DNA from: Candidatus Bathyarchaeia archaeon
Lineage (GTDB): Archaea; Thermoproteota; Bathyarchaeia; Bathyarchaeales; Bathycorpusculaceae
DNA length: 64,000 bases
Assembly: GCA_049512075.1 (NCBI GenBank)
Contig: JBEKXL010000002.1
Location: 165,930 to 229,929, forward strand
Direction: 5' to 3'
The notes beneath the pieces are model-generated. The model worked only from the letters and a program-made list of their open reading frames with translations, made no database searches and was not told the origin of the DNA. The stretch's first letter is position 1. Every line of letters starts with the position of its first letter. Shown here one piece after another: positions 1,446 through 18,249 of the stretch. The position numbers were made by a program, and so were the translations under genes.

Positions 1446-1697
1446 ATGAAGTACCGCCTCAAAATCGAAATCAGCTTAAAGCCCGGACACAGCGACCCTG
1501 AAGGAGAGACCACCGCGGGCTTGTTGAGGGAGCTGGGCTACAACGTTGAAGCTGTCAACGTCGGCAAAGTCTACAGAGTGATTCTTAATGCTTCCTCCAG
1601 AAAAGAAGCGCAGGCTGAGGCTGTGGAAATGTGCAAGAGGCTCTTGGCAAACCCGACTAAGGACGATTATGGGATACGTTTCGAGGAGACAAGATGA
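1446..1697 (+). CDS. purS: FGAM synthase subunit PurS
   Basis: LKPG..DPEG and MCKRLLANP motifs; overlaps purL. Confidence 0.95.
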   Translation: MKYRLKIEISLKPGHSDPEGETTAGLLRELGYNVEAVNVGKVYRVILNASSRKEAQAEAVEMCKRLLANPTKDDYGIRFEETR

Positions 1698-4075
1698 CGG
1701 CAAGCCTGTTTGTCCGCAGGAAAACCCCCTTTTCCCTCGTTGACGTGATGGTTCTCGGAGCCTCTGACGAGCAGCTTCTGGAAATCAGCCGCGAGCTTGG
1801 CTTGGCCCTTAGCCTGCACGAGATGAAGATGGTAAAAGAGCATTTTAGCAGGAGGGGACGGAACCCGACCGATGCCGAGCTTCAGACCATCGCTCAAACG
1901 TGGTCTGAGCACTGTTTCCACAAGACTTTCAAGGACAGAATCAGGTTTGACGGAAAACTGATTAACGGTCTTTTCAAAACGTACATTGCAAGTGCGACGA
2001 AGAGGATCAGTCCGGACTGGTGCTTCTCTGTTTTCGAGGATAACGCGGGCATCGTGAACTTCGACAAAGGGTACGGCGTGGCCGTCAAGGTTGAAACGCA
2101 CAATCATCCGTCGGCGGTGGAGCCTTTCGGCGGCGCGGCAACGGGGACGGGCGGCGTCATCCGAGACATCTTGGGCGTGTGGGCGGATCCGATAGCGTGT
2201 ACGGATGTGCTGGGTTTTGGGCCCTTGGATTTTGAGTATGAGAAGTTGCCCAGCGGTGTTAAGCATCCGAGGTACGAGTACATAGGTGTCGTGGCGGGGA
2301 TAGGAAGCTACGGCAACAACATGGGAATTCCAACAGTGAACGGAGCGATATACTTCGATGAGAGCTACACGGGCAACGTTGTTGTCTACTGCGGCTGCGT
2401 GGGCCTGCTTCCGTTTGACAGGTTCAGGAGGGATGCGAAAGCCGGTGACGCGATTGTGCTTGCGGGTGGCAAGACTGGTCGGGACGGTGTTCACGGGGTG
2501 ACTTTTGCGTCTGCGGAGCTGACGGAGAAATCTGAGACGGTTTCTCGGCCGGCCGTGCAGATCGCGAACCCTGTTGAGGAGGAGAAATTGAAGAGGGCAA
2601 TCGTTCAGGTCCGAGACATGGGGCTGGCATCAGGCATAACGGATCTGGGCGGTGGAGGCCTATCTTCGGCGGTCGGCGAGACGGCCAACAAGTACGGCTG
2701 CGGAGCAGTGGTTGACCTTGACAAGGTACCATTGAAGTATGCGGGGTTGGCTCCGTGGGAAATCTACGTTTCAGAGTCACAGGAAAGAATGCTGCTGACG
2801 GTGCCGTCTGACAACGTTGAAAAGGTTCTCAGAGTCTTTGGCGGAGAGGATGTTGAGGCGACGGTCATCGGGAGACTGATTTCCGGCGGATTACTGAGGC
2901 TTGATTATATGGGTGAGAGGGTTGGGGAGTTGGGCATTTCCTTCCTTTTCAAGCCGCCGAGAATCACTAGGACGGCGGAGTACCATCCTGCAGGTGATGC
3001 GGAGCCGATGTTTCCGGAGCCTGAGGACTTGAATGAGGTGTTAATGCGGGTTTTGGCTTCGCCTAACGTGGCGAGCAAGGAGAGTGTTGTGAGGAGTTAT
3101 GATCACGAGGTGAAAGGGCACACGGTGCTTAAGCCATTGCAGGGCGAGTTTGGCGGGCCAAACGATGCGGCCGTGTTGAAGCCGCTGGATGATTCTTGGA
3201 GGGGCATAGCGGTTTCGTGCGGCATGAACCCAAGTTACGGAAGGATTGATGCTTACTGGATGGCGGCTTCAGCGATTGATGAGGCCGTCAGGAACAACGT
3301 CGCTGTTGGCGGAAGAAGAATTGCTTTGCTGGACAATTTCACGTGGGGCAATCCCGAAAGACCTGAACGATTGGGCAGCTTGGTACGGGCCTGCGAAGCG
3401 TGTTACGATTTTGCCGTTGCTTTTGGGACGCCGTTCATATCTGGGAAAGACAGCTTGTACAACGAGTCGCCGCTTGGACCCGTGACGCCGACACTTCTGA
3501 TTACGGCTCTAGGGTTCATGCCTAATATTCGTTCAACGGTTTCGATGGATGTTAAGGCTTCGGGCGATTCTATGTACGTTGTGGGCGAAACTTTTCCGGA
3601 GCTGGGCGGCTCAGAATATTACAAGCTGAAGGGATGCTTGGGCAAGTCTGTTCCCAACGTGCGTGGTGCTCAGGCTAGGAAAGGGTTCAAGGCGGTTACT
3701 AGGGCGATTGACCATGGGCTGGTTAAGACGTGCCATGACCTGTCTGAGGGCGGTTTGGCCGTGGCGGCGGCGGAGATGGCTTTTGCCGGAGGTTATGGGT
3801 TGGAGTTGGATTTGGGCAAGGTTCCGGCGAAAGATCTGGGACGTGATGATTTTGTCTTGTTTTCGGAGTCGAACAGCAGGTTTCTTGTGGAGGTCTCTGG
3901 GAAGGCTCGGGACGAGTTTGAGGGTTTGATGAAGGGCGTGGTTTGTGCTGAGGTTGGCAAGGTAACAAAGTCTCCTCGGCTGTGTACCAGCGGTCTGGCT
4001 GGTGGAGTGATTGTGGACGCTTCGTTGGGCGATTTGTTGAAGAGTTGGAAGAGAACCTTGAGCAGTGGGGTGTGA
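1694..4075 (+). CDS. purL: FGAM synthase subunit PurL
   Basis: WSEHCFHK, KVETHNHPS, GAATGTGG, SESQERM, HDLSEGGL. Confidence 0.97.
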   Translation: MTASLFVRRKTPFSLVDVMVLGASDEQLLEISRELGLALSLHEMKMVKEHFSRRGRNPTDAELQTIAQTWSEHCFHKTFKDRIRFDGKLINGLFKTYIASATKRISPDWCFSVFEDNAGIVNFDKGYGVAVKVETHNHPSAVEPFGGAATGTGGVIRDILGVWADPIACTDVLGFGPLDFEYEKLPSGVKHPRYEYIGVVAGIGSYGNNMGIPTVNGAIYFDESYTGNVVVYCGCVGLLPFDRFRRDAKAGDAIVLAGGKTGRDGVHGVTFASAELTEKSETVSRPAVQIANPVEEEKLKRAIVQVRDMGLASGITDLGGGGLSSAVGETANKYGCGAVVDLDKVPLKYAGLAPWEIYVSESQERMLLTVPSDNVEKVLRVFGGEDVEATVIGRLISGGLLRLDYMGERVGELGISFLFKPPRITRTAEYHPAGDAEPMFPEPEDLNEVLMRVLASPNVASKESVVRSYDHEVKGHTVLKPLQGEFGGPNDAAVLKPLDDSWRGIAVSCGMNPSYGRIDAYWMAASAIDEAVRNNVAVGGRRIALLDNFTWGNPERPERLGSLVRACEACYDFAVAFGTPFISGKDSLYNESPLGPVTPTLLITALGFMPNIRSTVSMDVKASGDSMYVVGETFPELGGSEYYKLKGCLGKSVPNVRGAQARKGFKAVTRAIDHGLVKTCHDLSEGGLAVAAAEMAFAGGYGLELDLGKVPAKDLGRDDFVLFSESNSRFLVEVSGKARDEFEGLMKGVVCAEVGKVTKSPRLCTSGLAGGVIVDASLGDLLKSWKRTLSSGV

Positions 4076-4078
4076 GTT

Positions 4079-4894
4079 GTGAAGCGTGGGGACATTAGGG
4101 TTTGTGTTTTGCGTGTGGGTGGAACCAATTGTGATGCGGAGACGAGGCTTTCGTTCGCAGCGTTGGGTGTGCAGGCAGAGGTTGCGCATGTGAATGAGGT
4201 TGTGAAGAGGAATAGTCTTTTGGAGTATGATGTGCTGGTTTTTCCAGGGGGTTTTTCTTATGGGGATTATGTTCGGGCTGGGGCGATTTGGGCGAAGTGG
4301 ATTCTGGCTAAGCTGGGTAAGGAGTTGAAGGCTTTTGTCGATGAGGACCGTCTGATTCTTGGGATTTGTAACGGTTTTCAAGTGCTCGTCGAGACGGGTC
4401 TGCTGCCAGGCTTTGAAGGAATGAGCCCTTATCCTGAGGCGGGGTTGGCCACAAACTTTCCGCCAGGATACAACTGCCGCTGGATAAGCCTAAAGCATGA
4501 AAACAGCGGAAAATGTGCGTTCACCTCGCAAATTCCAAAGGGAAAGGTTCTGCACGTACCAGTCGCGCACAGCGAAGGCAGGTTTCTATTTCAGAAAGAG
4601 AAGGAGAAGCAGTATCTCGAGAAGCTTAGGGAGAATGATCAACTGGTCTTCCGATACTGCAACAAAGACGGCGATTACGCCAAAGGCAGTTTTCCCACGA
4701 ATCCGAACGGTTCTTTCCATGATATAGCAGGCATATGCAACCCAGAGGGAACAGTGTTCGGGCTAATGCCGCACCCTGAAAGAGCATTCTACTGGTGGCA
4801 ACAAGCCGACTGGACAGAGCAACAGAAGATGTCGCAACACGGCGATGGAAAACTGATCTTTGAAAGCTTGATTAATCATTTGGAAAAAATCTAA
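4079..4894 (+). CDS. purQ: FGAM synthase glutaminase subunit PurQ
   Basis: PGGFSYGD, GICNGFQ, MPHPER. Confidence 0.97.
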   Translation: MKRGDIRVCVLRVGGTNCDAETRLSFAALGVQAEVAHVNEVVKRNSLLEYDVLVFPGGFSYGDYVRAGAIWAKWILAKLGKELKAFVDEDRLILGICNGFQVLVETGLLPGFEGMSPYPEAGLATNFPPGYNCRWISLKHENSGKCAFTSQIPKGKVLHVPVAHSEGRFLFQKEKEKQYLEKLRENDQLVFRYCNKDGDYAKGSFPTNPNGSFHDIAGICNPEGTVFGLMPHPERAFYWWQQADWTEQQKMSQHGDGKLIFESLINHLEKI

Positions 4895-7455: not shown

Positions 7456-7608
7456 AACACATAGAGATGAACATTGGTGACCCGTCATCTCGGGTCTCTC
7501 TTTTCCACAACAGATTTTTCAGTTTTTTGCTTTCAAGCTTCTCTTGTTGTCATTAGAGCTTTGGCTCTTCACAAATATAAACTGCGCTTGACCTGTATAT
7601 AAAAGGTA

Positions 7609-8361
7609 TTGATCAGCTTGGAATCAATCACAGAAAAACGCGAACTCTTCAGACATTACTATTCGAAATCATATCCAGTTAACAGGAATTTGCTGGATCT
7701 CAAATTCAGACATTTCCGTTTCCAGCTTTTTTCCAAAAAGGTCACGTTTCGCAGGATATTGGACATTATCAATTCCCCCGAGCAATTGCGTGACAAATTG
7801 ATAAGTTATGTTCCTTTGAATGCTTATTTCACTCCTGTCAAATGGTTGAGTCCGATTTACGTTGGGCATACCAAGAATGTTCTTGAGGTGATGCTGTCGG
7901 CTCCACTCTACTTTGACATAGACATGCAGGACCTCTTTCCTCCTGTTTTTTCAGAAGTGAAAAGAAACACTTTACTTTTGCTTGAGATTTTGGAAGAAGA
8001 ATATTCCCAACGCCCAGACTTGATTGTCTTCTCTGGAAGGCAAGGTTTTCACATCTACTTTTGGAAGTGGGACATGCCTGAAATCCTGAAACTCAATCCT
8101 GCGAGCAGAGTGATTGAATTCAAGAAGCAGAGATCTATTATTCTAGAAATTGTGAGAAGAAAAAAAGTCGTTGTTGATGAAAGGATCACTGCTGATCCGT
8201 TTAGAATCATGAAAATACCAAACACGCTTCATGGAAAAACTGGTCTCATTGCTAAGCCAGTCAAAGAAGTTGAAAAGTTTGATCCTAAAACGGATGCTCA
8301 GGCATTTGATCGTGAAGTCTATGAGCGCCTTTTTAGGATTGACTGGGGAATTTACGACTAA
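7609..8361 (+). CDS. Compact archaeo-eukaryotic primase (PriS-like) catalytic domain protein
   Basis: FDID, FSGRQGFH and D..ITAD..RIMKIPNTLHGKTGL motifs of PriS. Confidence 0.8.
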   Translation: MISLESITEKRELFRHYYSKSYPVNRNLLDLKFRHFRFQLFSKKVTFRRILDIINSPEQLRDKLISYVPLNAYFTPVKWLSPIYVGHTKNVLEVMLSAPLYFDIDMQDLFPPVFSEVKRNTLLLLEILEEEYSQRPDLIVFSGRQGFHIYFWKWDMPEILKLNPASRVIEFKKQRSIILEIVRRKKVVVDERITADPFRIMKIPNTLHGKTGLIAKPVKEVEKFDPKTDAQAFDREVYERLFRIDWGIYD

Positions 8362-8736
8362 ATTTCCAGAATCCTTGCTGCAAACTCGGTCTTAGACGTC
8401 AAAAATCGTATAACCTCAAAACATGCGTCGGCATTCATCAAGAAAGGAACCCTTGCAACCAACCTATTTGGCTCAGCACTGTAGGCATGACACGTCGTGT
8501 TCACATGAACAGACAAACGGTGACTTGCTAGAGGGTGAACTCGGCTAAAGTGCGATGGAGACATTTCCACTGGCAGTCAAGTTCAAATTCCAAACAGAGC
8601 ACAACCCGAGCAAGTTCTATGCCTCGTTGTTCTTCAAAGCTGGTACCAGCCTTATGCCAGTTCTCGGTTGATTTATATAAAAAAAGGAGGATAGTAATTG
8701 CACTTGAGTTCTGGGCGTCGATGGACTTGAGAGACT

Positions 8737-9393
8737 ATGAGCAAACCAAATAGGAGCGATAGAAAAGCCGAGGTCGGTGGTATTTCCTCAAGCAACTCCA
8801 TTAAGAGATATAGTGCGCTTCTAGAAAATAAGTTGGGTGCTTTTGACGTTAAGGATAACGGAGAATATGTTCTACTGCACAAGCGAATCAGGCTTCCAGC
8901 CAAGAAATTCATTGATGCTATCGTTTACTCTACTGATAGAATATACATTTCGGGTTCGGCATACATAGATAGTGACGAATTTGGACAGAATGCAACGAGA
9001 ATAGTTGAACTAGCTCAACAAGCCATTTCGCCTGTTGAAAATGTGCGACCAATCTCTATCCAGAGTGCCAAAGATATTCTAGATTTTGCCAAGCACCTCA
9101 ACCTAGACAAGGACTATGAACGGATGATAGCGATCATTTTGTCAGACACTTCCAATGAAATTGTTCTTAGAGAAAAAATGAAAGCCTTCCAAATTGCAGG
9201 CGTTGCTCTAGATGACAGCATTCCTGAAAAGATAAGGAGATTAAGGGAAAAAGGTTGCCAATTTGTTGAGGAAGTTGGAATAAAAAACCTTAGAGAAATA
9301 CGAAACAAAATCGTACACTATGGAGAAATACCTCATAAAGGGCAAGCGGAAGAATGTTTGAAACTAGCAGATAGAGTCCTTCGGTCGGTGTGA
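8737..9393 (+). CDS. Hypothetical protein with C-terminal HEPN-like domain
   Basis: R-x4-H motif (RNKIVH) in a helical C-terminal region. Confidence 0.5.
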   Translation: MSKPNRSDRKAEVGGISSSNSIKRYSALLENKLGAFDVKDNGEYVLLHKRIRLPAKKFIDAIVYSTDRIYISGSAYIDSDEFGQNATRIVELAQQAISPVENVRPISIQSAKDILDFAKHLNLDKDYERMIAIILSDTSNEIVLREKMKAFQIAGVALDDSIPEKIRRLREKGCQFVEEVGIKNLREIRNKIVHYGEIPHKGQAEECLKLADRVLRSV

Positions 9394-10049
9394 ACATGGT
9401 TCTTGGAGGTCTGAATGAATACGTTGCATATATTGGTTCAGATGAAGCAGGTAAAGGTGAATGGCTCGGGCCTCTTATTGTGGCCGCTGTTGCTTTATCA
9501 AGGCAACAGCGTTCATATCTTGTCACTCAAGGAGTAATGGATAGTAAAGAACTCAGGCTAGATGTCATAGTTGAACTTGCCAAAGTGATACAGAGGTCTT
9601 GCCTTTCTTATCATGCTATGACAATCTCCCCTCTTTCATTCAATGATCTGATGAAACAGGTGAAAGGCGAAGGACGGAGTCTAAACGACATTTTGGCATG
9701 GGGGCACTCGCAAGCAATCGGCAATGTTTTTGAAGAACTCACCCGAAACGGAATATCAGGCAAGATCAAGCTTTCAATCGATATGTTTGACCAGATAAAA
9801 ACAGAAGCTAGACTGAAGAAAATCATTGATTTAGAGAAATTTGATTTAGATCACCGACCGAAAGCAGAAAGCGAAACTTCTGTAGCAGCAGCAAGCATAG
9901 TTGCTCGCGCTGTAAGGGAACTTTGGATTGATGAAAAATCAAAAGAACTCCGTCTGGATTTGCGAAAGCTCTCAGTTAATGAAGCAATATCGCGATCTGA
10001 TGCGGGCAACTTTGCAAAGGTAAGTTTCTTGAAGCGGAGAAAACTGTAA
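9390..10049 (+). CDS. Ribonuclease HII/HIII family protein
   Basis: IGSDEAGKGEWLGPLIVAAV, GVMDSK, VAAASIVAR. Confidence 0.85.
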   Translation: MNMVLGGLNEYVAYIGSDEAGKGEWLGPLIVAAVALSRQQRSYLVTQGVMDSKELRLDVIVELAKVIQRSCLSYHAMTISPLSFNDLMKQVKGEGRSLNDILAWGHSQAIGNVFEELTRNGISGKIKLSIDMFDQIKTEARLKKIIDLEKFDLDHRPKAESETSVAAASIVARAVRELWIDEKSKELRLDLRKLSVNEAISRSDAGNFAKVSFLKRRKL

Positions 10050-10433
10050 GTTCTTTACTTGTCTTCTGGATAATAAATGATCCATTCTTGTCGAACGTTT
10101 CTAAGCTTCTCTATTCTAAAATCTGTTACTGGCGCCTGTTACGTGCATAATGGTCGAAACCGAATTCTTCAATAAAAAGAGCGTGCCATAATGTGGCATA
10201 GATCCATTATACTAATTGTTGTATGCGACAAGTTGAGGTTCTTAATGCCAGCAAGCGCTTTTATCGCTACAGGTTCGCATGAGCAGATCAACAGAAGCCT
10301 CATTGTACAAGTTGCTCAAGGAATCAACTAACTAACAAGTCTTGAAGCGCGCAGGCGACGCTCCCAGTATAACAATCGCTCATGCGCTGCTAACCTTAAT
10401 GAGAACTATCAATTTCTGTAATTGGCGGGGGTT

Positions 10434-10490
10434 TTAGCCTAACCTGCCCACGGGCTCTCCCCTGATCTTGTTTCTGAACCTGCCTGCGCT
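10434..10490 (-). pseudogene. Diverged 3'-end fragment of a HAD (COG4030-like) gene
   Basis: Translates SAGRFRNKIRGEPVGRLG*, versus [18 protein letters not shown] at the end of 14194..15276. Confidence 0.7.
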
Positions 10491-10665
10491 GCAAAAGAAG
10501 AACAAGATTTAACCGTGAAATGGCCAGATTACGATGCTAGAGCGCGCGCATGACGTGCTGGTACTCATCTGCACCTATCATTGAAGATTGTTCATGGCTG
10601 GCCTCAGAAGGAGAAATATGTTATAGGTCCTGACCAAGAGAAGGGCCTTGCTTTGTTGGGCAAGC

Positions 10666-12036
10666 TTAGGTGGGCGTGATTTTGTATTCTTTTCCTCGTT
10701 TGATGAGTTGAACCTTGTTGCTTATTTTCTTGAATAGGTGCGCGTTTTCTGTGTGCACGGGATAGATTTTCTTGGGTTCTATTTCGTTGATGAGGTTTCC
10801 TATCTGCTCCTTGTTCATGTGTCCGGAAGCGTGCAGCTGGTGAAACTGTATTCCAAAATGTTCAAGCCAGTTGTGCAGGACCTCGTCTTCAATGTCCTCT
10901 TCGCTGAAGGGTTCACTCATGCTGTGTATGAAGCAACTGCCTCGCTCCGGCCTTATGTCTATCAGCTCTGCAAACTGGTAGAAATCCAAGTCCATAATTA
11001 ACTCGTTCTGGTTCTTGTGAACGAACTCGTACGTCACCATCTTGTCCATGAATTCTCTCTCCCACGCATAGTAGTCACTGTCGTCAAAAGTTCCAGACCT
11101 CTTGCGCTTAAAATACACGAGTATGTCTTCATCCTTCAAAGGATCTGGTAGATCAAGACGTTCGTCATCGATGAGCCTGCTCAATAAACACGCTGTCTTA
11201 GGAGAAATAACCATTTTTCTTCCGTTCCTCTTGGCAACGTTGTAGAAGCTTCTGAACCTATCCATGTCTCGGCTGTAATGCGATATAAACACGATTTTGT
11301 GTGTTGAGGAAACAAGCTTATTGCTCAAATGCTCTACCTGCGCCTCTGAATAGTTCTTTCTTTTTTCCTTCAAAGTCATTCTCGTGCCCTCGCAGACAAG
11401 AGCCGTGGCCCCCGATTCTTTCGCCCTGTGCACGAAATCGTCAGTCAAATCCCTCCGTGGACCATGCATCCTCAAGTCGCCCGTGTAAGCAATGGTTCCT
11501 TCAGAAGTGTGTATCAAGAAGCCGTAAGCCGCTGGAATCGAATGGTCCACGTGCACCGGTTCCACTTCAACGTCACCCACTCTGATCTTCTTTCCAGTGC
11601 GGAAAGTCCTGTAATCGTGGTTTCCATAATCGCAGAAGCTGCTCGTCTCTTCCATCGACTCAAGAAACAGCTTGGCCCCAACACCAAGGTACACTGGAAT
11701 TAGAGGGTCTGTGAAGCAGATGTGAGTCACATGGTCAAAGTGAGCGTGCGACAGAAAAATAGCGTCGAACTCCGGCTCCGAGTACGGAACATCGGTGAAA
11801 GCCAGCTTCTCCTTGGCATAGAGCCCCCGAATCTTCGGCAGCAAACCAAACTCGAAATGGTCTCCCAAACCGTTTATCGCACGTGGCGAAAGCCAGCCCG
11901 TAAAGTATCCTGCGCCAAAACTGAAGGACTGGCCAAAATCAAACAACAATTTCGTTTTTCTATCGTGCACAAGAATCTTGTTGCCGCCGATCTCGTCGAC
12001 CCCACCGTAAAAAGTAAGCCCGACCATCCGACTCAC
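10666..12036 (-). CDS. Metallo-beta-lactamase / beta-CASP hydrolase (RNase J-like)
   Basis: GGVDEIGGN, HAHFDH, VDHS, YTGDLR, HASGH, PVHTE. Confidence 0.85.
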   Translation of the reverse strand: MSRMVGLTFYGGVDEIGGNKILVHDRKTKLLFDFGQSFSFGAGYFTGWLSPRAINGLGDHFEFGLLPKIRGLYAKEKLAFTDVPYSEPEFDAIFLSHAHFDHVTHICFTDPLIPVYLGVGAKLFLESMEETSSFCDYGNHDYRTFRTGKKIRVGDVEVEPVHVDHSIPAAYGFLIHTSEGTIAYTGDLRMHGPRRDLTDDFVHRAKESGATALVCEGTRMTLKEKRKNYSEAQVEHLSNKLVSSTHKIVFISHYSRDMDRFRSFYNVAKRNGRKMVISPKTACLLSRLIDDERLDLPDPLKDEDILVYFKRKRSGTFDDSDYYAWEREFMDKMVTYEFVHKNQNELIMDLDFYQFAELIDIRPERGSCFIHSMSEPFSEEDIEDEVLHNWLEHFGIQFHQLHASGHMNKEQIGNLINEIEPKKIYPVHTENAHLFKKISNKVQLIKRGKEYKITPT

Positions 12037-12360: not shown

Positions 12361-13281
12361 TCATGCCAATTGGTTCTTTATCAAATCCTTGAGTGTTGGA
12401 AGTCCTAATCTGGCTCCAATTATTGTTGTACATCTGGATGCCGCAAAATTCCCTATCCTTCCACACTCCTCAAGACTCTTATGTTTAATCAAGCCGTAAA
12501 GAAACCCTGCACAAAAAGCGTCCCCGGCACCGGTCGTGTCAACCACACTCACCTTGAACGCTTCCACCTGGCTGCTTTGGTTCCCATCAGTCACATAGCA
12601 CCCTCTGCTGCCCAACTTGACCGCAACAACCTTCACACCCCTCTCGAGCATGGCTTCAGCGCCCTTTCTATACTCGGCTATGCCTGTCAGCAATTCAAGT
12701 TCACCCGCGTTCGGCATGAAAACGAAAGTCCTCTCAACAATCGATCCCAGTGCAGCAAGTCCTTTCCTCGCGTACAATGCACCAGGATCAAAACTTACCC
12801 TGACGTCTTCAGGAATCGCTTCAAGAATCTTCTTTTGTGTCTGAAAAGATTCTTCTCCCACAAAAGAGGTTAAGTGAAGAAACATGGTTTGAGACGCATA
12901 TCCTTTGATTTTTTCATTGAAGTCTACTTGACTGTTTACGCCCGGGTCAATGTACAGCGCACGCTCGCCGTTTTCGTCCACGAAGCCCATGACTGTGCCG
13001 CTTCTGCCCTTCTTTGCGACCGCTACGCCTTTTGCGTCAACGCCTTCTCTCTGGAATTCTTCGAGCAGCATCTTTCCCTCCCTGTCAATGGCAACTTTTC
13101 CGATGAAACCTACTTTGCAGCCGAGCCTTGCCAAGCCTGCAGCAGTGTTTGCCGCTGATCCACCGCAGGTCTCAGCAGAATCGGTTATGAAGCTCTCCTC
13201 TTCCTTCGCGGCTATCTTGTTTACCTTGAAAAGTTTGTCCACGTTAAGCGCGCCGAATCCCACAACGTCAAATCTGCTCAT
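12361..13281 (-). CDS. PfkB/ribokinase-family sugar or nucleoside kinase
   Basis: GGSAANTA and [11 protein letters not shown] signatures. Confidence 0.9.
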
Positions 13282-14192
13282 TTGAACAGCTCACGCAAGT
13301 AAATCTTGTACTCGCCCAATTTTCCTCCGTAGTTTCCAGCCGAGACCCTCACAACGCCGTCAACAGCCAGACTGGCTTCAATCCCAGCTTTCATCGCCTC
13401 TTTCACTGCCTGCATCAAAACGCCGTTAATCACTATTTCAGGAATGTACTTGACCACCTCAGGCACCATCGAATCTCTCCCCAACTTCTCCCTCAGCGAC
13501 GGACAATAAGGATGATTCGTTGTCGGCCCAATCAACGGAAACTTCGTCTCGGTCTTTGAACCGGCTGAACAAACGTTAAACGGTGTTATCACTCCTTCAA
13601 CCCTGCCAATGGCTTCTAACGCAGCCTTCCCCGCTTCCATGACCGCCTCCTTCGTTCCACACATTATCCAGAAGTTACCGCCGGAAACTCCCCGTGCATA
13701 CCCGATATGCCGCTCTATAAGAAAGTCAGGCACCATAAGCGGAACAACAATCATGCGACGGCCGTAAAGCCGTTCCTCCCATTCATGGCCATCGCCGCAG
13801 TGCCCCACTCTTTCCATCATGTCCATTTTCCCTTCAGGCTTTACACGCATAGCCTCAAAAACTGCAGTGAAGGGCTTCACAAGAATGTCCTGCCGAATCC
13901 GGTAAGAAAGCTCCCTCTCAAACCGGTCAACCACGCTCTCCAAAGGCTTCCCCTTCTCCAGACCTTTCCAAAGCTGCAGAACAGCTCCTTTCCGCTTGTC
14001 CGGAGTTTCCTTACCGCTCAACCATCTTTCAATTCCACCCTCGAGCCTACCTATTACTCCCGAAGGCGTAGCAGTAGCGTCTTCCGCCGCCTTCCTCAAT
14101 GTTTCCTCATCATCCGCAGTGACAATGACTCGCACGTACAGCCCGTCAAACGCCTCAGCAAATGTGTCCTCAACCAAATCCTTCTTACCCAT
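13278..14192 (-). CDS. ftr: Formylmethanofuran:H4MPT formyltransferase-like protein (Ftr paralogue)
   Basis: [49 protein letters not shown]. Confidence 0.85.
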
Positions 14193-14193
14193 C

Positions 14194-15276
14194 CTAGCCC
14201 AACCTGCCTGCGGCCTCTCCCCTGACTTTGTTTCTAAACTTGCTGCTTTCTTCTGCTAGGGTTTCCATATTCTGGTCCGTAATTATTTTAGCTTTAGGCA
14301 ACCTGTCCGGATACAACTTGAAAAGCCGATTAAGCAAAGCTTGACTAGCCAAACTCTTTTCCAGAGCTTTTCTGTTCCAGCTTTTCACCAGGTTTAGGGC
14401 TTCTGATTTTCCAAGCCTGAGAAATGCGTCTGCAATGACAGCGGTTACTATGCTGTTTTCAGACAGAACTGCAACCTCTGCGTTTCTTACAGCGTATCGG
14501 TTGCCGTTGAAAGACACGGTTAAGCCGCCCTTCCTCTCTACAAGCTTGAAGGCCTCGTCATCCGTTATGCTGTCACCCACGTACATGACATCTGCCACCG
14601 CAACGCCTAGCCCGTGAACTATGTCCTTTATCGCCTCAGCCTTTTCGCCGCCGCCCACCGGGTGGACTTCACAGTAAATTCTGCCGATCTCCATCTCAGC
14701 GATTTTCTTCCAGAAAATCTCATCGAGCCATCTCACTGTTTTCTGATGTTCTCTCGGCAGATCGTCCAGTGACTCGGCATCCGATGGGATCTCAAACATT
14801 GGCATCCTCGCGATTTCCTTTGCAATCTGCTTCAATTTCTCTTTCTCTTCTTCTCGAATGCCGTAATTGTCCATGCAGACTCTCGTACAGTACGCATTCT
14901 CGAAAGGAAACTCCAATACCTCGCACAAGGCTCTCAAATAGTGCTCGTAACTCACACTGACAATAAACGCAGGAGCCAGGTCTCGAACGTGTTGGAGCGT
15001 GTCCTTTATGCCCGGAATGCACACCAGGTTTTCAGCCGAGAATTCTCGCATTTTCCCGTCTGTAACGCCGTAAGCCTTGAGAAAGGGCAGAATAAGCTTG
15101 AGCGTGTCGCCAGCTTCATAGCCCGGTTTTCTCATAACCTCTGCGAGCACATCATCATACCTGCTCACAATCGTGAACAGTCTATCCCCATCAGGAACGA
15201 AGCGTGACGTTAACTCGAAGGCGTTGTCATTCTTTGAAATCGGGCCCTCACAGTCTGAAACGAAGACTCTCTTCAC
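14194..15276 (-). CDS. HAD-superfamily phosphohydrolase (COG4030 / EhaR-like)
   Basis: N-terminal [31 protein letters not shown]. Confidence 0.75.
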
Positions 15277-16688
15277 CGTTTGCGCCTCAACTCCTCCATA
15301 TGCTTCACGCTTTTTTCAATGTACCTCTTAGAAGCGATGTCGGTTCTGCTCCACAGTGCTCCGCCCTTGACAGCGTCTATGCCTTCGAGAGAAACCTTTC
15401 TCGCCGTCTCCAAATCGTCACCGACGCCCACAACGCACACGGCTCGCGACTTCAGAGCATAGGTTTCGCCGTCCCGCTGCTCCATCGCCCCTGGATAAAC
15501 ACGAACATTGTCACCGTACTTCCCGCTCAGCTCGTATGCTCCTGACAAGTCAACAGGCTTGCCGACTTCGCCTTTTTTCACAAGATTGGGGAAAGCTTCT
15601 GCGTATCCGCCGTAGCTGGGCGGAACCTTATAGGTCACAACAGTCGCGGACTTTTCCAACTCAATACGGGTCAAATTCCCCTCCAAAATCTTAAAACACA
15701 CATCAACAAAATCGTCCTTCAAGACTGGCAAAACGTTTATTATTTCTGGATCTCCAGGCCGGCTGTTGTTTTCAAGAATCTTCAACCCCTTACCAGTGTG
15801 CATGAAAGCCACGTACAACGGCACACCCCTCAAGGCTGAAGCATCCTTTGCCATCGACTTCAACCTTCCAAAAATCTTCTCCACGACCTCCAGCTCTCTC
15901 TGCCGATCCGCCTTGGACAGGAAGGGCAACACGTCGCCCTTGTCCTTGTAGGATCCCATTCCACCCGTGTTCGGCCCCAAATCATCGTCGAACGCGCGTT
16001 TGTGGTCTCTCGTGTCGGGAAGGGGCACGAGCCGTTTGCCGTCGCAGAAAGCCTGAAAACTCGATTCTTCCCCCTCAACCTTTTCTTCAATGATAACGGT
16101 GCCATGCTGATAGTTGGAGAGGAAGTGATCAAACAGTTCTTCCCGCGTGGTGAAGTGATCTCCCCAGACACCCACTCCTTTTCCAGCTGTAGGCTTGTCG
16201 GGCTTCACGACCGCTTGGTTTTGCAGTTCGTCAACCCAACTTTCGACAGCCCTCTTCACTTCCGTCGTGCCCTTGTAATCCTTCGGATCAAAAACCTTGA
16301 AGCGCGGATTAACTTCCGGCACGATTTCCTGAAACAAAAGCCTCTGCTGCACCTTGCTTTCCTCTATGGCGTACTCCTTCGTCGGACAGATCAGGGGTAT
16401 GCCCATCTGCTTTTCCACAAGGTCGCGCACGCCCTCGATGATAGGTTTCTCCGGGCCGATTATGCCGAAGTCGATGTTGTCCTTATTGGCTTGAGCGAAT
16501 TTGCAGATTTCGCAGATGTTCAAGTCTGGTATGACAACGTGCTTGGCAGCTCTCTGAACGTTGAACGGGTTCCGCTGCTTGTCAGCAATGTAAAGCTCCA
16601 CCTTGTAATTCCGGCTTCTGGCAAAAGCGTCAACCATCGCCGCTTCTCTTGAACCGTAGGAAACAACGAGCACGCCCACGTTCTCCAT
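15273..16688 (-). CDS. purD: Phosphoribosylamine-glycine ligase
   Basis: GSREAA, GPE, GKGV, DHKRAFDDDLGPNTGGMGSY, ENNSRPGDPE, RTDIA. Confidence 0.95.
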   Translation of the reverse strand: MENVGVLVVSYGSREAAMVDAFARSRNYKVELYIADKQRNPFNVQRAAKHVVIPDLNICEICKFAQANKDNIDFGIIGPEKPIIEGVRDLVEKQMGIPLICPTKEYAIEESKVQQRLLFQEIVPEVNPRFKVFDPKDYKGTTEVKRAVESWVDELQNQAVVKPDKPTAGKGVGVWGDHFTTREELFDHFLSNYQHGTVIIEEKVEGEESSFQAFCDGKRLVPLPDTRDHKRAFDDDLGPNTGGMGSYKDKGDVLPFLSKADRQRELEVVEKIFGRLKSMAKDASALRGVPLYVAFMHTGKGLKILENNSRPGDPEIINVLPVLKDDFVDVCFKILEGNLTRIELEKSATVVTYKVPPSYGGYAEAFPNLVKKGEVGKPVDLSGAYELSGKYGDNVRVYPGAMEQRDGETYALKSRAVCVVGVGDDLETARKVSLEGIDAVKGGALWSRTDIASKRYIEKSVKHMEELRRKR

Positions 16689-16743
16689 AAGCTAACCCTC
16701 TTAGGTCACGGAATGACTTTGAAACGCCTGATTTGGTTTGCCG

Positions 16744-18249
16744 CTATGTCGTTTGGGCGGCTTCTTCTATCTCGTACAGCCTTCCCGTTTCCTCGTAGCC
16801 TTCCAAGAACCGTTTCTTCATCACATCAGCTATCTTCTGAGCCAGTGGCGTAGGATACTTGCCCGTTAAACACGCCATGCACAGCTCATCCTGCTTGAAA
16901 CCCGTCGCCTTCACAAGCCCTTCCAGAGACTGGTAGCAAACTGCGTCCGCATCGATTATCTTTGCAATCTCCTCCGTACTGTGCCGTGAACCTATCAGCT
17001 GGCCGTATGTTGCCATGTCGATTCCATAAAGACACGGCCCGACTATGCGTGGAAAAGTCACGAATACGTACACTTTCTTGGCGCCCATTCTCCGCATCTT
17101 CTCCACAATGACTCTTGTCGTGTCGCTCCTGACGATGCTGTCCTCCGTGACTATGATCCTTTTTCCTTTAACCTTCGACGCCAAAATGTTGATTTTCCTG
17201 TCTATCGTCGAAGTGCGATCCTTGCTCAGCAACAGAAAAGCCCTTTCAGTCACATACCGGTGCCTCCGCGAAGCCCTCTCCCACCTTATCCCAGAAGCCT
17301 CGTGAACGCCCAAAGCCGAGTCATCACCCGTCTCAGGCACAGAAAGAATCATATCCGCATCCTTGACCACGCTGGGATTCTCTTTAACAAGGTTCCTGCC
17401 AAATTCCTCCCGAACCTCATAAACATACTTATCATCGAACCGCGAATCCGGCCTCGCAAAATACGCAAATTCAAAAGCGCAAAACGCTTTTCGATAATCT
17501 TTCACAAGCCTTTGCCTTTCAAAACCATCCTTCGAAACCGTCACAAGCTCTCCAGGTTCCAGTTCAAAGTCCCTTTCAAAACCGTTTATGTCCAAACTCG
17601 CGGTTTCTGAAGAAAACACATAGGTATTCCCGTCTGGACTGTGACCGGCGCACAGCGGCCTTATGCCGTGCGGATCTTTGAAAGCGAAGAAATCGCCTTT
17701 CTCTGTTATGCCAGCCACGGAAAAGGCTCCCTCAATCTCCTGCATGCACGCCCTGACCGCAGACGCCAAATCCTTGCGTTTCACAAGCTCGATCAAAAGC
17801 TTGTAACAGATCAAATCCGAATCGCATTCGTAGGAAAAACCCCTGAACTCCTTCTCTATTTCCTTCCTAAGCTGAAACGTGTTCACAACATTACCGTTGA
17901 ACGAAATAGCTACTTTTGAACCGTTTTTCGAAGCCGTAACCGGCTGCGTGCCCTTAATCAACGACGTCTCATCACATTTTCCAGAAGTCGTGTACCTCAC
18001 GTTTCCAATACCGATGCTCCCGGGCAACCGCCCGAACCATTCCTGAATCGCGCTCGTCTTGATCTTCGGCACAAGATCCAAGCTTCTGTGAACATGAAAC
18101 TTCCCATCCTGATACGTGAGAAATCCGTGCGACTGGTGACCTCTGTGGTTCTGTGCCCTCAGACCCCAGTAAATGTGCGAGAACACTGGTCGGTTCTCTA
18201 GATTCTTTGCCGCGAACACTCCACACGCTATCTTAAGCTCGTCTTGCAT
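16744..18249 (-). CDS. purF: Amidophosphoribosyltransferase
   Basis: Short propeptide then CGVF, HRG, VRYTTSG, CAFEFAYFARPDS, EDSIVRSDT, Fe-S cysteines (PCLYGID, CMAC). Confidence 0.95.
   Translation of the reverse strand: MQDELKIACGVFAAKNLENRPVFSHIYWGLRAQNHRGHQSHGFLTYQDGKFHVHRSLDLVPKIKTSAIQEWFGRLPGSIGIGNVRYTTSGKCDETSLIKGTQPVTASKNGSKVAISFNGNVVNTFQLRKEIEKEFRGFSYECDSDLICYKLLIELVKRKDLASAVRACMQEIEGAFSVAGITEKGDFFAFKDPHGIRPLCAGHSPDGNTYVFSSETASLDINGFERDFELEPGELVTVSKDGFERQRLVKDYRKAFCAFEFAYFARPDSRFDDKYVYEVREEFGRNLVKENPSVVKDADMILSVPETGDDSALGVHEASGIRWERASRRHRYVTERAFLLLSKDRTSTIDRKINILASKVKGKRIIVTEDSIVRSDTTRVIVEKMRRMGAKKVYVFVTFPRIVGPCLYGIDMATYGQLIGSRHSTEEIAKIIDADAVCYQSLEGLVKATGFKQDELCMACLTGKYPTPLAQKIADVMKKRFLEGYEETGRLYEIEEAAQTT

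What the first reader, a model, noticed from the sequence alone, without database searches (positions are those of the whole stretch)
12361..18249. purF-purD-HAD-Ftr-PfkB operon: candidate PurN/PurT-independent route from GAR to FGAR
Seen: five co-oriented genes, with 4-nt overlaps (purD/HAD, ftr/pfkB) and a 1-nt gap (HAD/ftr). purSLQ lies just across the island and no purN or purT is in the window. Established: PurF and PurD make GAR, PurSLQ consume FGAR, Ftr enzymes transfer formyl groups between methanofuran and H4MPT, and some H4MPT-using archaea lack a recognisable GAR transformylase. From memory (needs checking), a similar HAD / Ftr-paralogue / ribokinase trio ends the Methanothermobacter eha operon as ehaR-S-T with no assigned function. 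Inference: the trio sits exactly where step 3 of purine synthesis belongs. One scheme is that HAD dephosphorylates GAR, the Ftr paralogue formylates the glycinamide amine from formyl-H4MPT or formyl-methanofuran, and PfkB rephosphorylates it to FGAR. Alternatively Ftr acts on GAR directly and the other two handle salvage.
Basis: partly seen in the sequence, partly recalled or inferred. Interest (0 to 1): 0.88.

Follow-up and report, generated by a model that had tools for sequence, protein, structure and literature searches.

The report
Candidate missing archaeal purine formylation module
A three-gene set (phosphatase-like, formyltransferase paralogue, ribokinase-like) wedged into the purine operon of this archaeon is very probably the long-sought replacement for the missing third step of purine synthesis in archaea that lack both known enzymes for it.

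Summary
The five co-oriented genes are real, with the stated overlaps. The genome is a Bathyarchaeia MAG, 99.76% complete. It has single-copy purF and purD, plus purSLQ, purM and purP, but no PurN (PF00551) or PurT match.

The HAD-like, Ftr and PfkB genes are orthologues of EhaR, EhaS and EhaT of Methanobacteria. The Ftr belongs to a clade (Ftr2) separate from all characterised Ftr. The genome also holds a canonical Ftr and a third copy.

Ftr2 and PurN/PurT are nearly mutually exclusive.
- In one euryarchaeal phylum sample, 57 of 58 Ftr2-positive genomes lack both enzymes, against 4 of 83 Ftr2-negative genomes.
- In the Methanobacteria sample, 111 of 111 carry EhaR and 0 of 111 carry PurN or PurT.

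In Bathyarchaeia the slot after purF-purD holds one of three things: EhaR-Ftr2-PfkB, PurT or a PurN-like gene. That is gene displacement in place.

Most likely Ftr2 formylates the glycinamide amine from formyl-H4MPT or formyl-methanofuran. Whether it acts on GAR itself or on its riboside, between the phosphatase and the kinase, is open. There is no biochemistry yet. My literature searches found no paper stating this assignment.

The parts
16744..18249 (-). purF, amidophosphoribosyltransferase (step 1). It is the only full-length copy in the genome.
   Evidence: TIGR01134 at 322.6 bits, below the 350 cut-off. The other own-genome matches are partial or weak.
15273..16688 (-). purD, GAR synthetase (step 2). 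Single copy. Overlaps the next gene by 4 nt.
   Evidence: GARS_N, GARS_A and GARS_C domains. TIGR00877 at 260.5 bits, below the 288 cut-off. One match in the genome.
14194..15276 (-). EhaR-type HAD-superfamily protein, a putative phosphatase.
   Evidence: Weak HAD models only. JGI names homologues EhaR. A profile of 48 orthologues hits PDB 1Y8A 'hypothetical protein AF1437' at 247.5 bits. Invariant residues in 48 sequences: D8, E10 (DCEGP), S107, K212, G234-D235-S236 and D239.
13278..14192 (-). Ftr2 (EhaS-type), a paralogue of formylmethanofuran:H4MPT formyltransferase. Proposed formyl-transfer enzyme for step 3.
   Evidence: PF01913 plus PF02741. 192.5 bits to A. fulgidus Ftr 1M5H, against about 290-320 bits for canonical representatives. 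Lies in the Ftr2 clade. E252 is invariant in 38 sequences. 25 clade-specific conserved positions.
12361..13281 (-). EhaT-type PfkB kinase, ribokinase-like. Overlaps Ftr2 by 4 nt.
   Evidence: PF00294 at 181.2 bits. Ribokinase TIGR02152 at 168.7 bits, below the 299.65 cut-off. The GG-S-A-x-N and T-x-A-G-D motifs are invariant in 40 orthologues. The nearest solved structures are ribokinases, YdjH and MJ0406.
1446..4894 (+). purS-purL-purQ, FGAR amidotransferase (step 4), which consumes the proposed product.
   Evidence: FGAR-AT_linker, AIRS and AIRS_C domains for purL and GATase_5 for purQ. The ORFs are listed. In 11 relatives this block lies convergent next to pfkB.

Best explanation
The EhaR-Ftr2-PfkB trio is the step-3 module (GAR to FGAR) of de novo purine synthesis in H4MPT-using archaea that have neither PurN nor PurT.

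Ftr2 is the catalyst of formyl transfer. It keeps the Ftr fold and the catalytic glutamate, but its substrate-side residues are remodelled. It moves a formyl group from N5-formyl-H4MPT or formyl-methanofuran on to the primary amine of the glycinamide moiety. That amine is a chemical mimic of the aminomethyl group of methanofuran.

The route I favour slightly is the one that uses all three activities. EhaR (a HAD phosphatase) removes the 5'-phosphate of GAR, Ftr2 formylates the riboside, and the ribokinase-like PfkB restores the phosphate with ATP to give FGAR. The ATP then makes a near-thermoneutral transamidation irreversible, at the same ATP cost as PurT.

Shown:
- gene content and gene order
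- clade membership of the Ftr
- intact catalytic motifs in all three proteins
- complementary distribution with PurN/PurT
- displacement in place by PurT or a PurN-like gene

Inferred:
- the reaction itself
- the formyl donor
- the substrates of EhaR and PfkB

I put the core claim (Ftr2 supplies the step-3 formylation) at about 0.7. The three-step route is about 0.37 and direct action on GAR about 0.33. The confidence given below is for the core claim.
For: 1. The pathway has a gap at step 3 only.
- purF and purD are single copy.
- purSLQ is in the window.
- purM lies at C2:162134-163129.
- purP is present.
- No PF00551 and no purT match in a 99.76%-complete genome.

2. Both possible formyl donors are available.
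- Canonical Ftr on C22.
- Two MCH genes.
- FwdA at 814 bits.

3. Operon context in Bathyarchaeia, from 24 loci.
- purD abuts EhaR in 22.
- Ftr2 abuts EhaR in 20.
- All five genes are contiguous in 13.
- purSLQ lies next to PfkB in 11.

4. Displacement in place.
- In G500 the order is purQ-purL-purF-purF-like-purD-PurT-purE, with PurT (NF006766) at 469.5 bits, above the 339 cut-off.
- In G068 the order is purF-purD-PurN-like, with TIGR00639 at 76.6 bits.

5. Complementary distribution.
- Phylum of the Archaeoglobaceae genome G201, 141 genomes: Ftr2 (at least 440 bits to profile A4) in 58, of which 1 has PF00551 and 0 have PurT. Of the 83 without Ftr2, 79 have PurN or PurT.
- Phylum of the Methanobacteriaceae genome G202: EhaR in 111 of 111, PF00551 in 0 of 111, purT in 0 of 111.
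- Bathyarchaeia class sample, 201 genomes: Ftr2 in 78, PurT-like in 11, overlap 1.
- Within family f6: 2 of 10 have Ftr2 and 6 others have a PurT-like gene.
- EhaR was not found in 5 of 5 PurT/PurN-bearing genomes tested.

6. Phylogeny. All Ftr genes next to EhaR form one group of 50 rows (SH-aLRT 88). It stands apart from a 34-row clade (SH-aLRT 99) that holds the named canonical Ftr of Archaeoglobaceae, Methanobacteriaceae, ANME-1, Methanosarcinales, Asgard archaea and bacteria.

7. The catalytic Glu is invariant in 38 Ftr2 sequences. Its role in FhcD/Ftr is taken from PMC6926001, passages read.

8. Literature.
- Brown 2011 (PMC3261824, section 8 read) reports the step-3 gap in Archaeoglobi, Methanobacteriales (printed there as Methanomicrobiales) and M. 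kandleri.
- Chadwick 2022 (PMC9012536, passages read) reports Ftr2 in ANME-1, ANME-2a/b, Archaeoglobales, M. kandleri and M. marburgensis, and no PurN/PurT in ANME-1. It does not connect the two facts.

Evidence for the three-step route in particular.
- The phosphatase and kinase motifs are invariant across three phyla.
- The gene order EhaR-Ftr2-PfkB equals the proposed reaction order in Bathyarchaeia and in 15 of 16 Methanobacteriota loci.
- All 58 Ftr2-positive genomes have an EhaR-like gene: 53 are clear, 4 are very divergent ORFs of about 360 aa, and 1 is cut by a contig end.
Against: - There is no enzymatic, genetic or labelling evidence.
- Outside Bathyarchaeia no pur genes were found beside the trio. 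In 16 of 16 Methanobacteriota loci and 20 Halobacteriota-type loci, my own-protein queries found none. A Pfam census of 114 neighbouring ORFs showed no pur family among the top 25.
- There are exceptions to complementarity. G277 has both Ftr2 and PF00551. G212, G223 and G234 have an intermediate Ftr2-like gene (355-358 bits) plus PF00551. G455 has Ftr2 plus a weak PurT-like match (175 bits). G276, G284, G342 and G319 have none of the three.
- EhaR and PfkB persist without Ftr2 where a PF00551 protein is present. This holds for G222, G244, G253 and G261 and for Bathyarchaeia f7 (G036, G068). So the pair is not strictly tied to Ftr2.
- Much of the correlation is phylogenetically clustered. Methanobacteriota count as a single event.
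- In the Bathyarchaeia class sample, 113 genomes lack both Ftr2 and PurT-like. Only 5 of them were tested for PF00551: 1 strong match, 2 weak, 2 none. Families f48 (46 genomes) and f59 (36 genomes) are therefore largely unresolved.
- Brown 2011 cites the view that formyl-H4MPT is not a formyl donor for purines, and notes that labelling data in Methanobacteriales are inconsistent.
Confidence: 0.68

Rival explanations
1. Ftr2 formylates GAR itself in one step. EhaR and PfkB are accessory enzymes, a phosphatase/kinase pair acting on some other ribosyl compound. Possible roles are salvage of purine ribosides, supply of ribose 5-phosphate or PRPP, or repair. They are not on the main path. This shares the core claim with the best explanation and differs only in the route.
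For: - PurL's ATP-driven step can pull a slightly endergonic formyl transfer without extra ATP. The figure of +4.4 kJ/mol for formyl-H4MPT to the furan amine is quoted in PMC6926001.
- EhaR and PfkB exist without Ftr2 in PF00551-bearing genomes: G222, G244, G253, G261, G036 and G068.
- In G068, PfkB is co-oriented with FolD and overlaps it, next to a PurH-type AICARFT gene. This shows a purine/C1 role that does not depend on the formyl carrier.
- Ftr2 predicts absence of PurN/PurT better (57 of 58) than EhaR does (55 of 63).
- In 7 of 20 Halobacteriota-type loci, EhaR stands without either partner nearby.
Against: - It gives no reason why a phosphatase and a ribokinase-like kinase are translationally coupled to Ftr2 in two phyla.
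- It gives no reason why EhaR is lost together with Ftr2 in the PurT or true-PurN lineages: 0 of 5, plus G002 and G114.
- Every Ftr2-positive genome tested has an EhaR-like ORF.
Confidence: 0.33
2. The trio serves purine or C1 metabolism in another way, and Ftr2 is not the GAR formyltransferase. Three examples follow.
- It releases formate from formyl-H4MPT/MFR, as the Fhc complex does, for PurP and for an unrecognised formate-dependent GAR ligase.
- It formylates glycine, so that a divergent PurD ligates N-formylglycine to phosphoribosylamine.
- It acts at the AICAR step.
For: - FhcD, an Ftr homologue, works in a formate-yielding complex (PMC6926001).
- PurP, which needs formate, is present.
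- purD and purF of the trio-bearing lineages score below NCBIfam equivalog cut-offs: 260.5 against 288 and 322.6 against 350. purD of the PurT lineage scores 344.6. A changed PurD specificity is therefore conceivable.
Against: - The gene that replaces the trio in its slot is PurT or a PurN-like gene, both step-3 enzymes.
- No PurT-like ATP-grasp protein is found at E <= 1e-20 in the 26 EhaR-bearing Bathyarchaeia or in the 111 Methanobacteriota. A formate-dependent ligase would therefore have to be of an unknown family.
- Only one purP-type match exists in the genome.
- These schemes leave EhaR and PfkB unexplained.
Confidence: 0.17
3. The three genes are what earlier annotation made of them. 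On this view they are subunits of the Eha hydrogenase, or a second catabolic Ftr isoenzyme with an unrelated sugar kinase and phosphatase, and their position next to purF-purD is chance.
For: - They are co-transcribed with ehaA-R in Methanothermobacter (Kaster 2011).
- In L212 they follow the hydrogenase large subunit and polyferredoxins.
- NCBIfam subfamily model NF002554 names the protein an Ftr, at 348.6 bits against a 297 cut-off.
Against: - In 22 of 24 Bathyarchaeia loci the trio is fused to purD, not to hydrogenase genes.
- The window operon holds no hydrogenase gene.
- The genome already has a canonical Ftr.
- The fhcD equivalog model TIGR03119 is not met: 244 bits against 292.6.
- Chance does not explain the near-exclusive distribution with PurN/PurT, nor the slot replacement.
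Confidence: 0.04

Closest known systems
PurN (10-formyl-tetrahydrofolate GAR transformylase, PF00551) and PurT (formate/ATP-dependent GAR transformylase, ATP-grasp)
   Same: The proposed net reaction is the same, GAR to FGAR. The operon slot after purF-purD is the same in Bathyarchaeia. If the three-step route holds, the ATP cost equals that of PurT.
   Different: There is no sequence or fold relation. The donor would be a methanogenic C1 carrier (formyl-H4MPT or formyl-methanofuran), not formyl-folate or free formate. Three proteins do the work instead of one.
Canonical Ftr (formylmethanofuran:H4MPT formyltransferase; PDB 1FTR, 1M5H, 1M5S) and bacterial FhcD (6S6Y)
   Same: The two-lobe Ftr fold domains are shared. 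The catalytic Glu in the P-E-I-V-I-N-G motif is conserved. The chemistry is the same: formyl transfer between an amide and a primary amine.
   Different: It forms a separate clade. It scores about 190 bits to solved Ftr, against about 290-320 bits for canonical representatives. 25 positions are at least 90% conserved in Ftr2 but at most 10% shared with 71 canonical sequences. Examples are G100R, T105V, F131H, F132C, G178C, S210A, G215E and A223P, written as canonical residue, position, Ftr2 residue. It always occurs in addition to a canonical copy in the genomes inspected.
EhaR/EhaS/EhaT of Methanothermobacter (last three genes of the eha operon) and AF1437 of Archaeoglobus fulgidus (PDB 1Y8A)
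   Same: They are orthologous. The window Ftr2 lies in a 33-row clade (SH-aLRT 99) with the Methanobacteriota copies. The trio order is the same in 15 of 16 Methanobacteriota loci. The EhaR profile matches 1Y8A at 247.5 bits.
   Different: Here the trio is in a purine operon with no hydrogenase genes. In print these proteins have no assigned function (Kaster 2011; the 1Y8A title is 'hypothetical protein').
Dephosphorylate-then-rephosphorylate steps in vitamin pathways. Examples are a HAD phosphatase before lumazine synthase followed by riboflavin kinase, and thiamin monophosphate phosphatase followed by pyrophosphokinase.
   Same: The logic matches the favoured route: a HAD phosphatase removes a phosphate so that a middle enzyme can act, and a kinase restores it.
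   Different: The pathway and the families differ. No such detour is known in purine synthesis.

Membership tests
Ftr family (Pfam FTR + FTR_C) | Both lobes of the Ftr fold are present over the full length. | tested here: met
   PF01913 covers residues 7-152 (146.8 bits) and PF02741 covers 155-302 (192.7 bits).
Ftr family (Pfam FTR + FTR_C) | The catalytic, oxyanion-stabilising glutamate (Glu252 in FhcD according to PMC6926001). | tested here: met
   E252 (window numbering), in the P-E-I-V-I-N-G motif, is invariant in 38 Ftr2 sequences. It aligns with the conserved E of 71 canonical sequences and of 1M5H and 1M5S. The equivalence to FhcD Glu252 rests on that motif alignment, not on a structure.
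Canonical formylmethanofuran:H4MPT formyltransferase (orthologue of characterised Ftr/FhcD) | Groups with characterised-type Ftr in a tree and reaches the equivalog score. | tested here: not met
   It lies outside the 34-row canonical clade (SH-aLRT 99). TIGR03119 scores 244 bits, below the 292.6 cut-off. The genome has its own canonical copy on C22.
Canonical formylmethanofuran:H4MPT formyltransferase (orthologue of characterised Ftr/FhcD) | Catalyses formyl-MFR + H4MPT = MFR + formyl-H4MPT. | not testable with these tools
   This needs an enzyme assay.
Ftr2 / EhaS clade | Clusters with Ftr copies encoded beside EhaR and EhaT, including those of Methanobacteriota. | tested here: met
   A 50-row group (SH-aLRT 88) holds all EhaR-adjacent Ftr. 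A 33-row clade (SH-aLRT 99) joins the Bathyarchaeia and Methanobacteriota copies. The window gene scores 517.9 bits to profile A4, against at most 285 bits for canonical copies.
GAR formyltransferase (functional class, EC 2.1.2.2-like) | Converts GAR to FGAR. | not testable with these tools
The inference rests on context only.
GAR formyltransferase (functional class, EC 2.1.2.2-like) | Encoded with other de novo purine genes, and mutually exclusive with the known isofunctional enzymes. | tested here: met
   Slot replacement by PurT or a PurN-like gene comes. The exceptions are listed in the Against line.
PurN (PF00551) / PurT (TIGR01142) | Sequence membership of any protein of this genome. | tested here: not met
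   There are 0 matches for either family in G000, while 12 and 14 of the 14 control genomes gave matches.
HAD superfamily phosphatase (for the 360-aa protein) | Motifs I-IV: nucleophile Asp, Ser/Thr, Lys and an acidic pair. | tested here: met
   D8, S107, K212, D235 and D239 are invariant in 48 orthologues. Motif I reads D-x-E rather than D-x-D. The Pfam and NCBIfam HAD models score at or below their cut-offs.
Ribokinase (PfkB family) | PfkB fold with the GG and catalytic-Asp motifs, plus the equivalog score for ribokinase. | tested here: inconclusive
   PF00294 scores 181.2 bits and the motifs are invariant. TIGR02152 scores 168.7 bits, below the 299.65 cut-off. It is therefore a PfkB kinase of ribokinase type whose substrate is not assigned.
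Subunits of energy-converting hydrogenase Eha | Encoded in, and assembled with, the Eha membrane hydrogenase. | tested here: not met
   In this window and in 22 of 24 Bathyarchaeia loci the neighbours are pur genes, not hydrogenase genes. The eha context is seen only in Methanobacteriota. Physical association is not testable here.

The most novel reading that the evidence does not exclude
Purine C8 in a large part of the archaeal domain (Methanobacteria, Archaeoglobi, ANME-1, Methanopyrus, many Bathyarchaeia) is taken straight from the CO2-reduction pathway. A three-enzyme detour does this: EhaR dephosphorylates GAR, the Ftr paralogue formylates the riboside from formyl-H4MPT or formyl-methanofuran, and EhaT rephosphorylates it to FGAR.

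This would be a third, non-homologous solution for step 3, and the first known biosynthetic use of Ftr chemistry. It would also explain why ehaRST ride on the operon of the anaplerotic hydrogenase Eha, since the drain on the C1 cycle and its refill would be co-expressed. It may represent a pre-folate state of purine synthesis.
Probability: 0.35. Interest if true: 0.92.

Novelty: new variant of a known kind. Interest (0 to 1): 0.82.

Why it matters
The identity of the GAR formyltransferase in Methanobacteriales, Archaeoglobi, Methanopyrus and ANME-1 has been an acknowledged gap since at least 2011. Brown et al. state it, and Chadwick et al. restated it in 2022.

The data here give a specific candidate with orthologues in cultivable, genetically tractable methanogens, so it can be tested directly. 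If confirmed, four things follow.
- Purine pathway reconstruction would be complete for hundreds of archaeal species, including the gut Methanobrevibacter.
- Three widely mis-annotated genes ('Ftr', 'ribokinase', 'Eha subunit R') would be re-annotated.
- A biosynthetic exit from the methanogenic C1 pathway would be revealed, which matters for carbon and energy budgets and for isotope models.
- A methanogen-specific essential enzyme would become available as a possible inhibitor target.

Tried and rejected
- Shared regulatory motif. I compared the regions upstream of purF, purS and purM for common words of 9-12 nt and found none. No claim of co-regulation is made.
- Pur linkage outside Bathyarchaeia. 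My own-protein phmmer queries on 36 loci and a Pfam census of 114 neighbouring ORFs found no pur families there. The census reports only the 25 commonest families, so rare pur neighbours could be missed.
- Naming clades from cluster members. This gave Thermoproteota, Aenigmarchaeota, Asgard and Planctomycetota names but no euryarchaeal anchor. The anchors came instead.
- Mapping the Ftr2-specific residues on to the MFR or H4MPT site. I abandoned this because the tools give no coordinates and the paper on the Ftr-coenzyme complex is not in the library. The formyl donor is therefore undecided.
- Old labelling papers. White 1997 (PMC179124) and Maden 2000 (PMC1221290) are not held. What I say about labelling comes only from Brown 2011.
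- Supplementary files of Brown 2011 and Chadwick 2022 were not seen. They may list per-genome gene calls that bear on the counts.
- Prior publication. I used search terms, among them 'Ftr2'+'purine', 'glycinamide ribonucleotide'+'tetrahydromethanopterin' and 'formylmethanofuran'+'FGAR'. No paper was found that assigns Ftr2/EhaS to GAR formylation. Only the held library was searched.
- Complex prediction (EhaR with Ftr2 and PfkB) could not be run, so nothing can be said about physical binding.
- Rejected ideas. General cofactor (MFR/H4MPT) biosynthesis is rejected because the trio is absent from most genomes that have only canonical Ftr. A role at the AICAR step is rejected because purP is present and the displacing genes are step-3 enzymes.

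Full report
**What is in the window**

- purF, 16744-18249
- purD, 15273-16688
- a 360-aa HAD-like gene, 14194-15276
- an Ftr homologue, 13278-14192
- a PfkB kinase, 12361-13281

The junctions are 4-nt overlaps at purD/HAD and Ftr/PfkB and a 1-nt gap at HAD/Ftr. Pfam and NCBIfam support the names. purF (322.6 bits against 350) and purD (260.5 against 288) fall just below the equivalog cut-offs. The HAD-like protein matches HAD models only weakly. purS, purL and purQ lie at 1446-4894 on the other strand.

Near-identical database proteins carry Bathyarchaeia names, so the organism is a Bathyarchaeon and not a methanogen.

**The gap in the pathway**

The assembly is 2.73 Mb in 86 contigs and 99.76% complete.
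- No PF00551 match and no TIGR01142 match, while the control genomes gave matches.
- purD is single copy.
- purF is the only full-length copy.
- purM lies 2.8 kb before the window, at C2:162134-163129.
- purP is present.

Step 3 is therefore the one step without a gene.

The genome has three Ftr-family genes.
- The C22 copy is the orthologue of canonical Ftr. It is the best query for all 80 named Ftr loci.
- The C5 copy is flanked by two methenyl-H4MPT cyclohydrolase genes.
- The third copy is the one in the window.

FwdA is present at 814 bits. Both formyl-methanofuran and formyl-H4MPT should therefore be available.

**Identity of the trio**

JGI names close homologues of the HAD-like protein 'energy-converting hydrogenase A subunit R'. 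Kaster et al. 2011 (PMC3087415, passages read) state that EhaS and EhaT of Methanothermobacter had been annotated as Ftr and ribokinase, and that they are co-transcribed with ehaA-R. The authors considered those functions very unlikely and offered no other.

I fetched 16 loci from the phylum of a named Methanobacteriaceae genome. EhaR, Ftr and PfkB are adjacent in all 16. In L212 they follow a [NiFe]-hydrogenase large subunit and two polyferredoxins. A profile of 48 EhaR orthologues matches one solved structure strongly: 1Y8A, 'hypothetical protein AF1437' of A. fulgidus.

**Phylogeny**

I built two quick IQ-TREE trees.
- The first had 58 cluster representatives.
- The second had 89 rows. These were 29 hand-picked named canonical Ftr out of 80, 18 representatives, the three own copies, and all Ftr ORFs of at least 250 aa found beside EhaR.

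Both trees separate two groups.
- A canonical clade of 34 rows (SH-aLRT 99). It holds the named Archaeoglobaceae, Methanobacteriaceae, ANME-1, Methanosarcinales, Bathyarchaeota, Asgard and bacterial sequences.
- A group of 50 rows (SH-aLRT 88) that contains every EhaR-adjacent Ftr.

The window protein sits in a 33-row clade (SH-aLRT 99) that joins the Bathyarchaeia and Methanobacteriota copies. Against solved Ftr structures it scores 192.5 bits, where canonical representatives score about 290-320.

The catalytic glutamate is invariant in 38 Ftr2 sequences. Its role is taken from PMC6926001. 25 positions are conserved in Ftr2 but differ from 71 canonical sequences. Among them are an H-C-G-D-G motif in place of F-F-G-D-G and a rebuilt S-A-G-S-K-P-E-T...I-G-P-T-T segment. 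This is what one expects of an active formyltransferase with a changed substrate.

**Context in relatives**

I examined 24 Bathyarchaeia loci.
- purD abuts EhaR in 22.
- Ftr2 abuts EhaR in 20.
- All five genes are contiguous in 13. Several of the others are cut by contig ends.
- purS-purL-purQ lies convergent beside PfkB in 11, and within about 530 nt in 8.

The 7.4-kb stretch between purQ and pfkB in this window is therefore a local insertion into an otherwise compact purine supercluster. It is of lower GC and encodes an HD-domain protein, a primase-like protein, RNase HII and an RNase J-like protein.

**Displacement in place**

Two Bathyarchaeia families lack Ftr2.
- G500 (family f47) has the order purQ-purL-purF-purF-like-purD-PurT-purE, with PurT (NF006766) at 469.5 bits against a 339 cut-off.
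- G068 (family f7) has the order purF-purD-PurN-like, with TIGR00639 at 76.6 bits, below its cut-off.

The slot directly after purF-purD is thus filled by the trio, by PurT or by a PurN-type gene. This is the strongest single argument that the trio does what PurT and PurN do.

**Distribution**

(a) Own phylum, 201 genomes at least 85% complete. EhaR is found in 25 of 28 other Bathyarchaeia and in 0 of 172 outside the class. Among the 29 Bathyarchaeia:
- PF00551 appears only as weak partial matches in the two f7 genomes.
- A PurT-like gene (239-245 bits; best NCBIfam model is PurT at 258.6, against PurK at 84) appears only in two of the three EhaR-negative genomes.

(b) Bathyarchaeia class sample, 201 genomes.
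- Ftr2 in 78, PurT-like in 11, both in 1, and that one has the weakest PurT-like score.
- Family f6 is a mosaic, with 2 genomes carrying Ftr2 and 6 carrying a PurT-like gene.
- EhaR was not found in 5 of 5 PurT/PurN-bearing genomes.
- 113 genomes have neither Ftr2 nor PurT-like. Only 5 of these were tested for PF00551: 1 true PurN, 2 weak matches, 2 none.

(c) Phylum of a named Archaeoglobaceae genome, 141 genomes. Scores against the Ftr2 profile are bimodal: 58 genomes at 440 bits or more, 3 at 355-358, and canonical copies at 285 or less.
- Of the 58 Ftr2-positive genomes, 1 has PF00551 and none has PurT.
- Of the 83 others, 79 have PF00551 and/or PurT.

(d) Phylum of the Methanobacteriaceae genome. 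EhaR in 111 of 111, PF00551 in 0 of 111, PurT in 0 of 111.

These counts are not phylogenetically independent. The independent events I can point to are the two slot replacements, the f6 mosaic and the separate phyla.

**Literature**

Brown et al. 2011 (section 8 read) could not find PurN or PurT in two Archaeoglobi, four Methanobacteriales (printed there as Methanomicrobiales) and M. kandleri.

Chadwick et al. 2022 (passages read) make two statements in separate sections. First, a divergent Ftr2 occurs in ANME-1, ANME-2a/b, Archaeoglobales, M. kandleri and M. marburgensis. Second, ANME-1, Archaeoglobales and Methanobacteriales lack PurN and PurT, so an unidentified enzyme must exist. The two observations are not linked there.

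None of my ten searches found a paper that links them. Searches are the most direct.

**Mechanism**

The core inference is that Ftr2 is the formyl-transferring enzyme of step 3. I put this at about 0.7.

The glycinamide amine of GAR is a primary -CH2-NH2, like the formyl-accepting group of methanofuran. The simplest chemistry is therefore the known reverse Ftr reaction with GAR in place of methanofuran. The quoted value for the natural acceptor is +4.4 kJ/mol. A reaction with formyl-methanofuran as donor and GAR in place of H4MPT is equally possible. I could not decide between them.

The roles of EhaR and PfkB are open.
- Both keep their catalytic motifs across three phyla. For EhaR these are D8-x-E10, S107, K212 and G-D-S-x-x-D. 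For PfkB they are the ribokinase-type N-terminal ribose motif, G-G-S-A-x-N, and the T-x-A-G-D catalytic Asp.
- A phosphatase and a kinase that are co-translated make sense if their substrates differ by the formyl group.
- In favour: the gene order equals the proposed reaction order. Every Ftr2-positive genome tested has an EhaR-like ORF. EhaR disappears together with Ftr2 where PurT or true PurN took over.
- Against: EhaR-PfkB persists with a PF00551 protein and without Ftr2 in four genomes of the Archaeoglobaceae phylum and in Bathyarchaeia f7. In f7, PfkB is co-oriented with FolD and overlaps it, beside a PurH-type gene. Either those PurN-like enzymes also work on the riboside, or the pair has a purine-linked role of its own.

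I therefore give the shunt 0.37 and direct formylation of GAR 0.33.

The link to eha in Methanobacteria fits either version. A formyl withdrawal for purines would be such a drain.

**Limits**

- There is no biochemistry.
- The trio has no pur neighbours outside Bathyarchaeia.
- A handful of genomes hold both systems or neither.
- The trees are quick searches with SH-aLRT support only.
- The PurN status of two large Bathyarchaeia families is untested.
- Supplements and several older papers could not be read.

Noticed in passing
window 5485-12036: About 7.4 kb of lower-GC sequence (0.40-0.42, against 0.49-0.50 in the operon) lies between purQ and pfkB. It encodes an HD-domain protein, a primase small-subunit-like protein, an unassigned ORF, RNase HII and an RNase J-like beta-CASP protein. 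In 8 relatives purQ lies within about 530 nt of pfkB, so this looks like an insertion into the purine supercluster.
   Followed up: partly
window about 1193-1336 (G000:C2:167122-167265): A short stretch just upstream of purS matches only the last 48 positions of the purM model (42 bits, in a 95-aa open frame). The intact purM lies on the opposite strand at C2:162134-163129, outside the window. It may be a remnant of a former purM-purS-purL-purQ arrangement.
   Followed up: no
G000:C5:61316-64771 (L003): The third, most divergent Ftr-family gene of this genome (PF01913 at 74.6 bits) is flanked on both sides by methenyl-H4MPT cyclohydrolase (MCH) genes. It forms its own subclade with representatives P0206, P0214 and P0176 inside the canonical clade. 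Its role is unknown.
   Followed up: partly
window 13278-14192 (Ftr2), residues C132, C178, C208, C230: Four cysteines are invariant in 38 Ftr2 sequences. C132 and C178 replace an invariant Phe and a mostly-Gly position of canonical Ftr. Whether they bind a metal, form disulfides or line the new substrate site is unknown.
   Followed up: no
window 15273-18249; L238 4494-9198; L239 6638-9523: purD scores below the NCBIfam equivalog cut-off of 288 in the trio-bearing genome (260.5 bits) and in the f7 genome with EhaR/PfkB (248.5 bits). It scores above the cut-off (344.6 bits) in the PurT-bearing f47 genome, which also carries two purF-type genes in tandem. This may be lineage drift or co-adaptation of PurD with the step-3 system.
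   Followed up: no
L194 3308-6292 (G068): In a Bathyarchaeia lineage without Ftr2, the EhaT-type PfkB gene overlaps a FolD gene on the same strand. Next to them lies a PurH-type AICAR formyltransferase gene. This is a folate-type C1/purine cluster inside a class that mostly uses H4MPT-type genes.
   Followed up: partly
L209 4951-6063, and four more loci of the Archaeoglobaceae-phylum sample: An amidohydrolase/adenosine-deaminase-like gene recurs within 2.5 kb of EhaR-PfkB, in 5 of 114 neighbouring ORFs scanned. This may hint at a nucleoside-level role for the pair.
   Followed up: no
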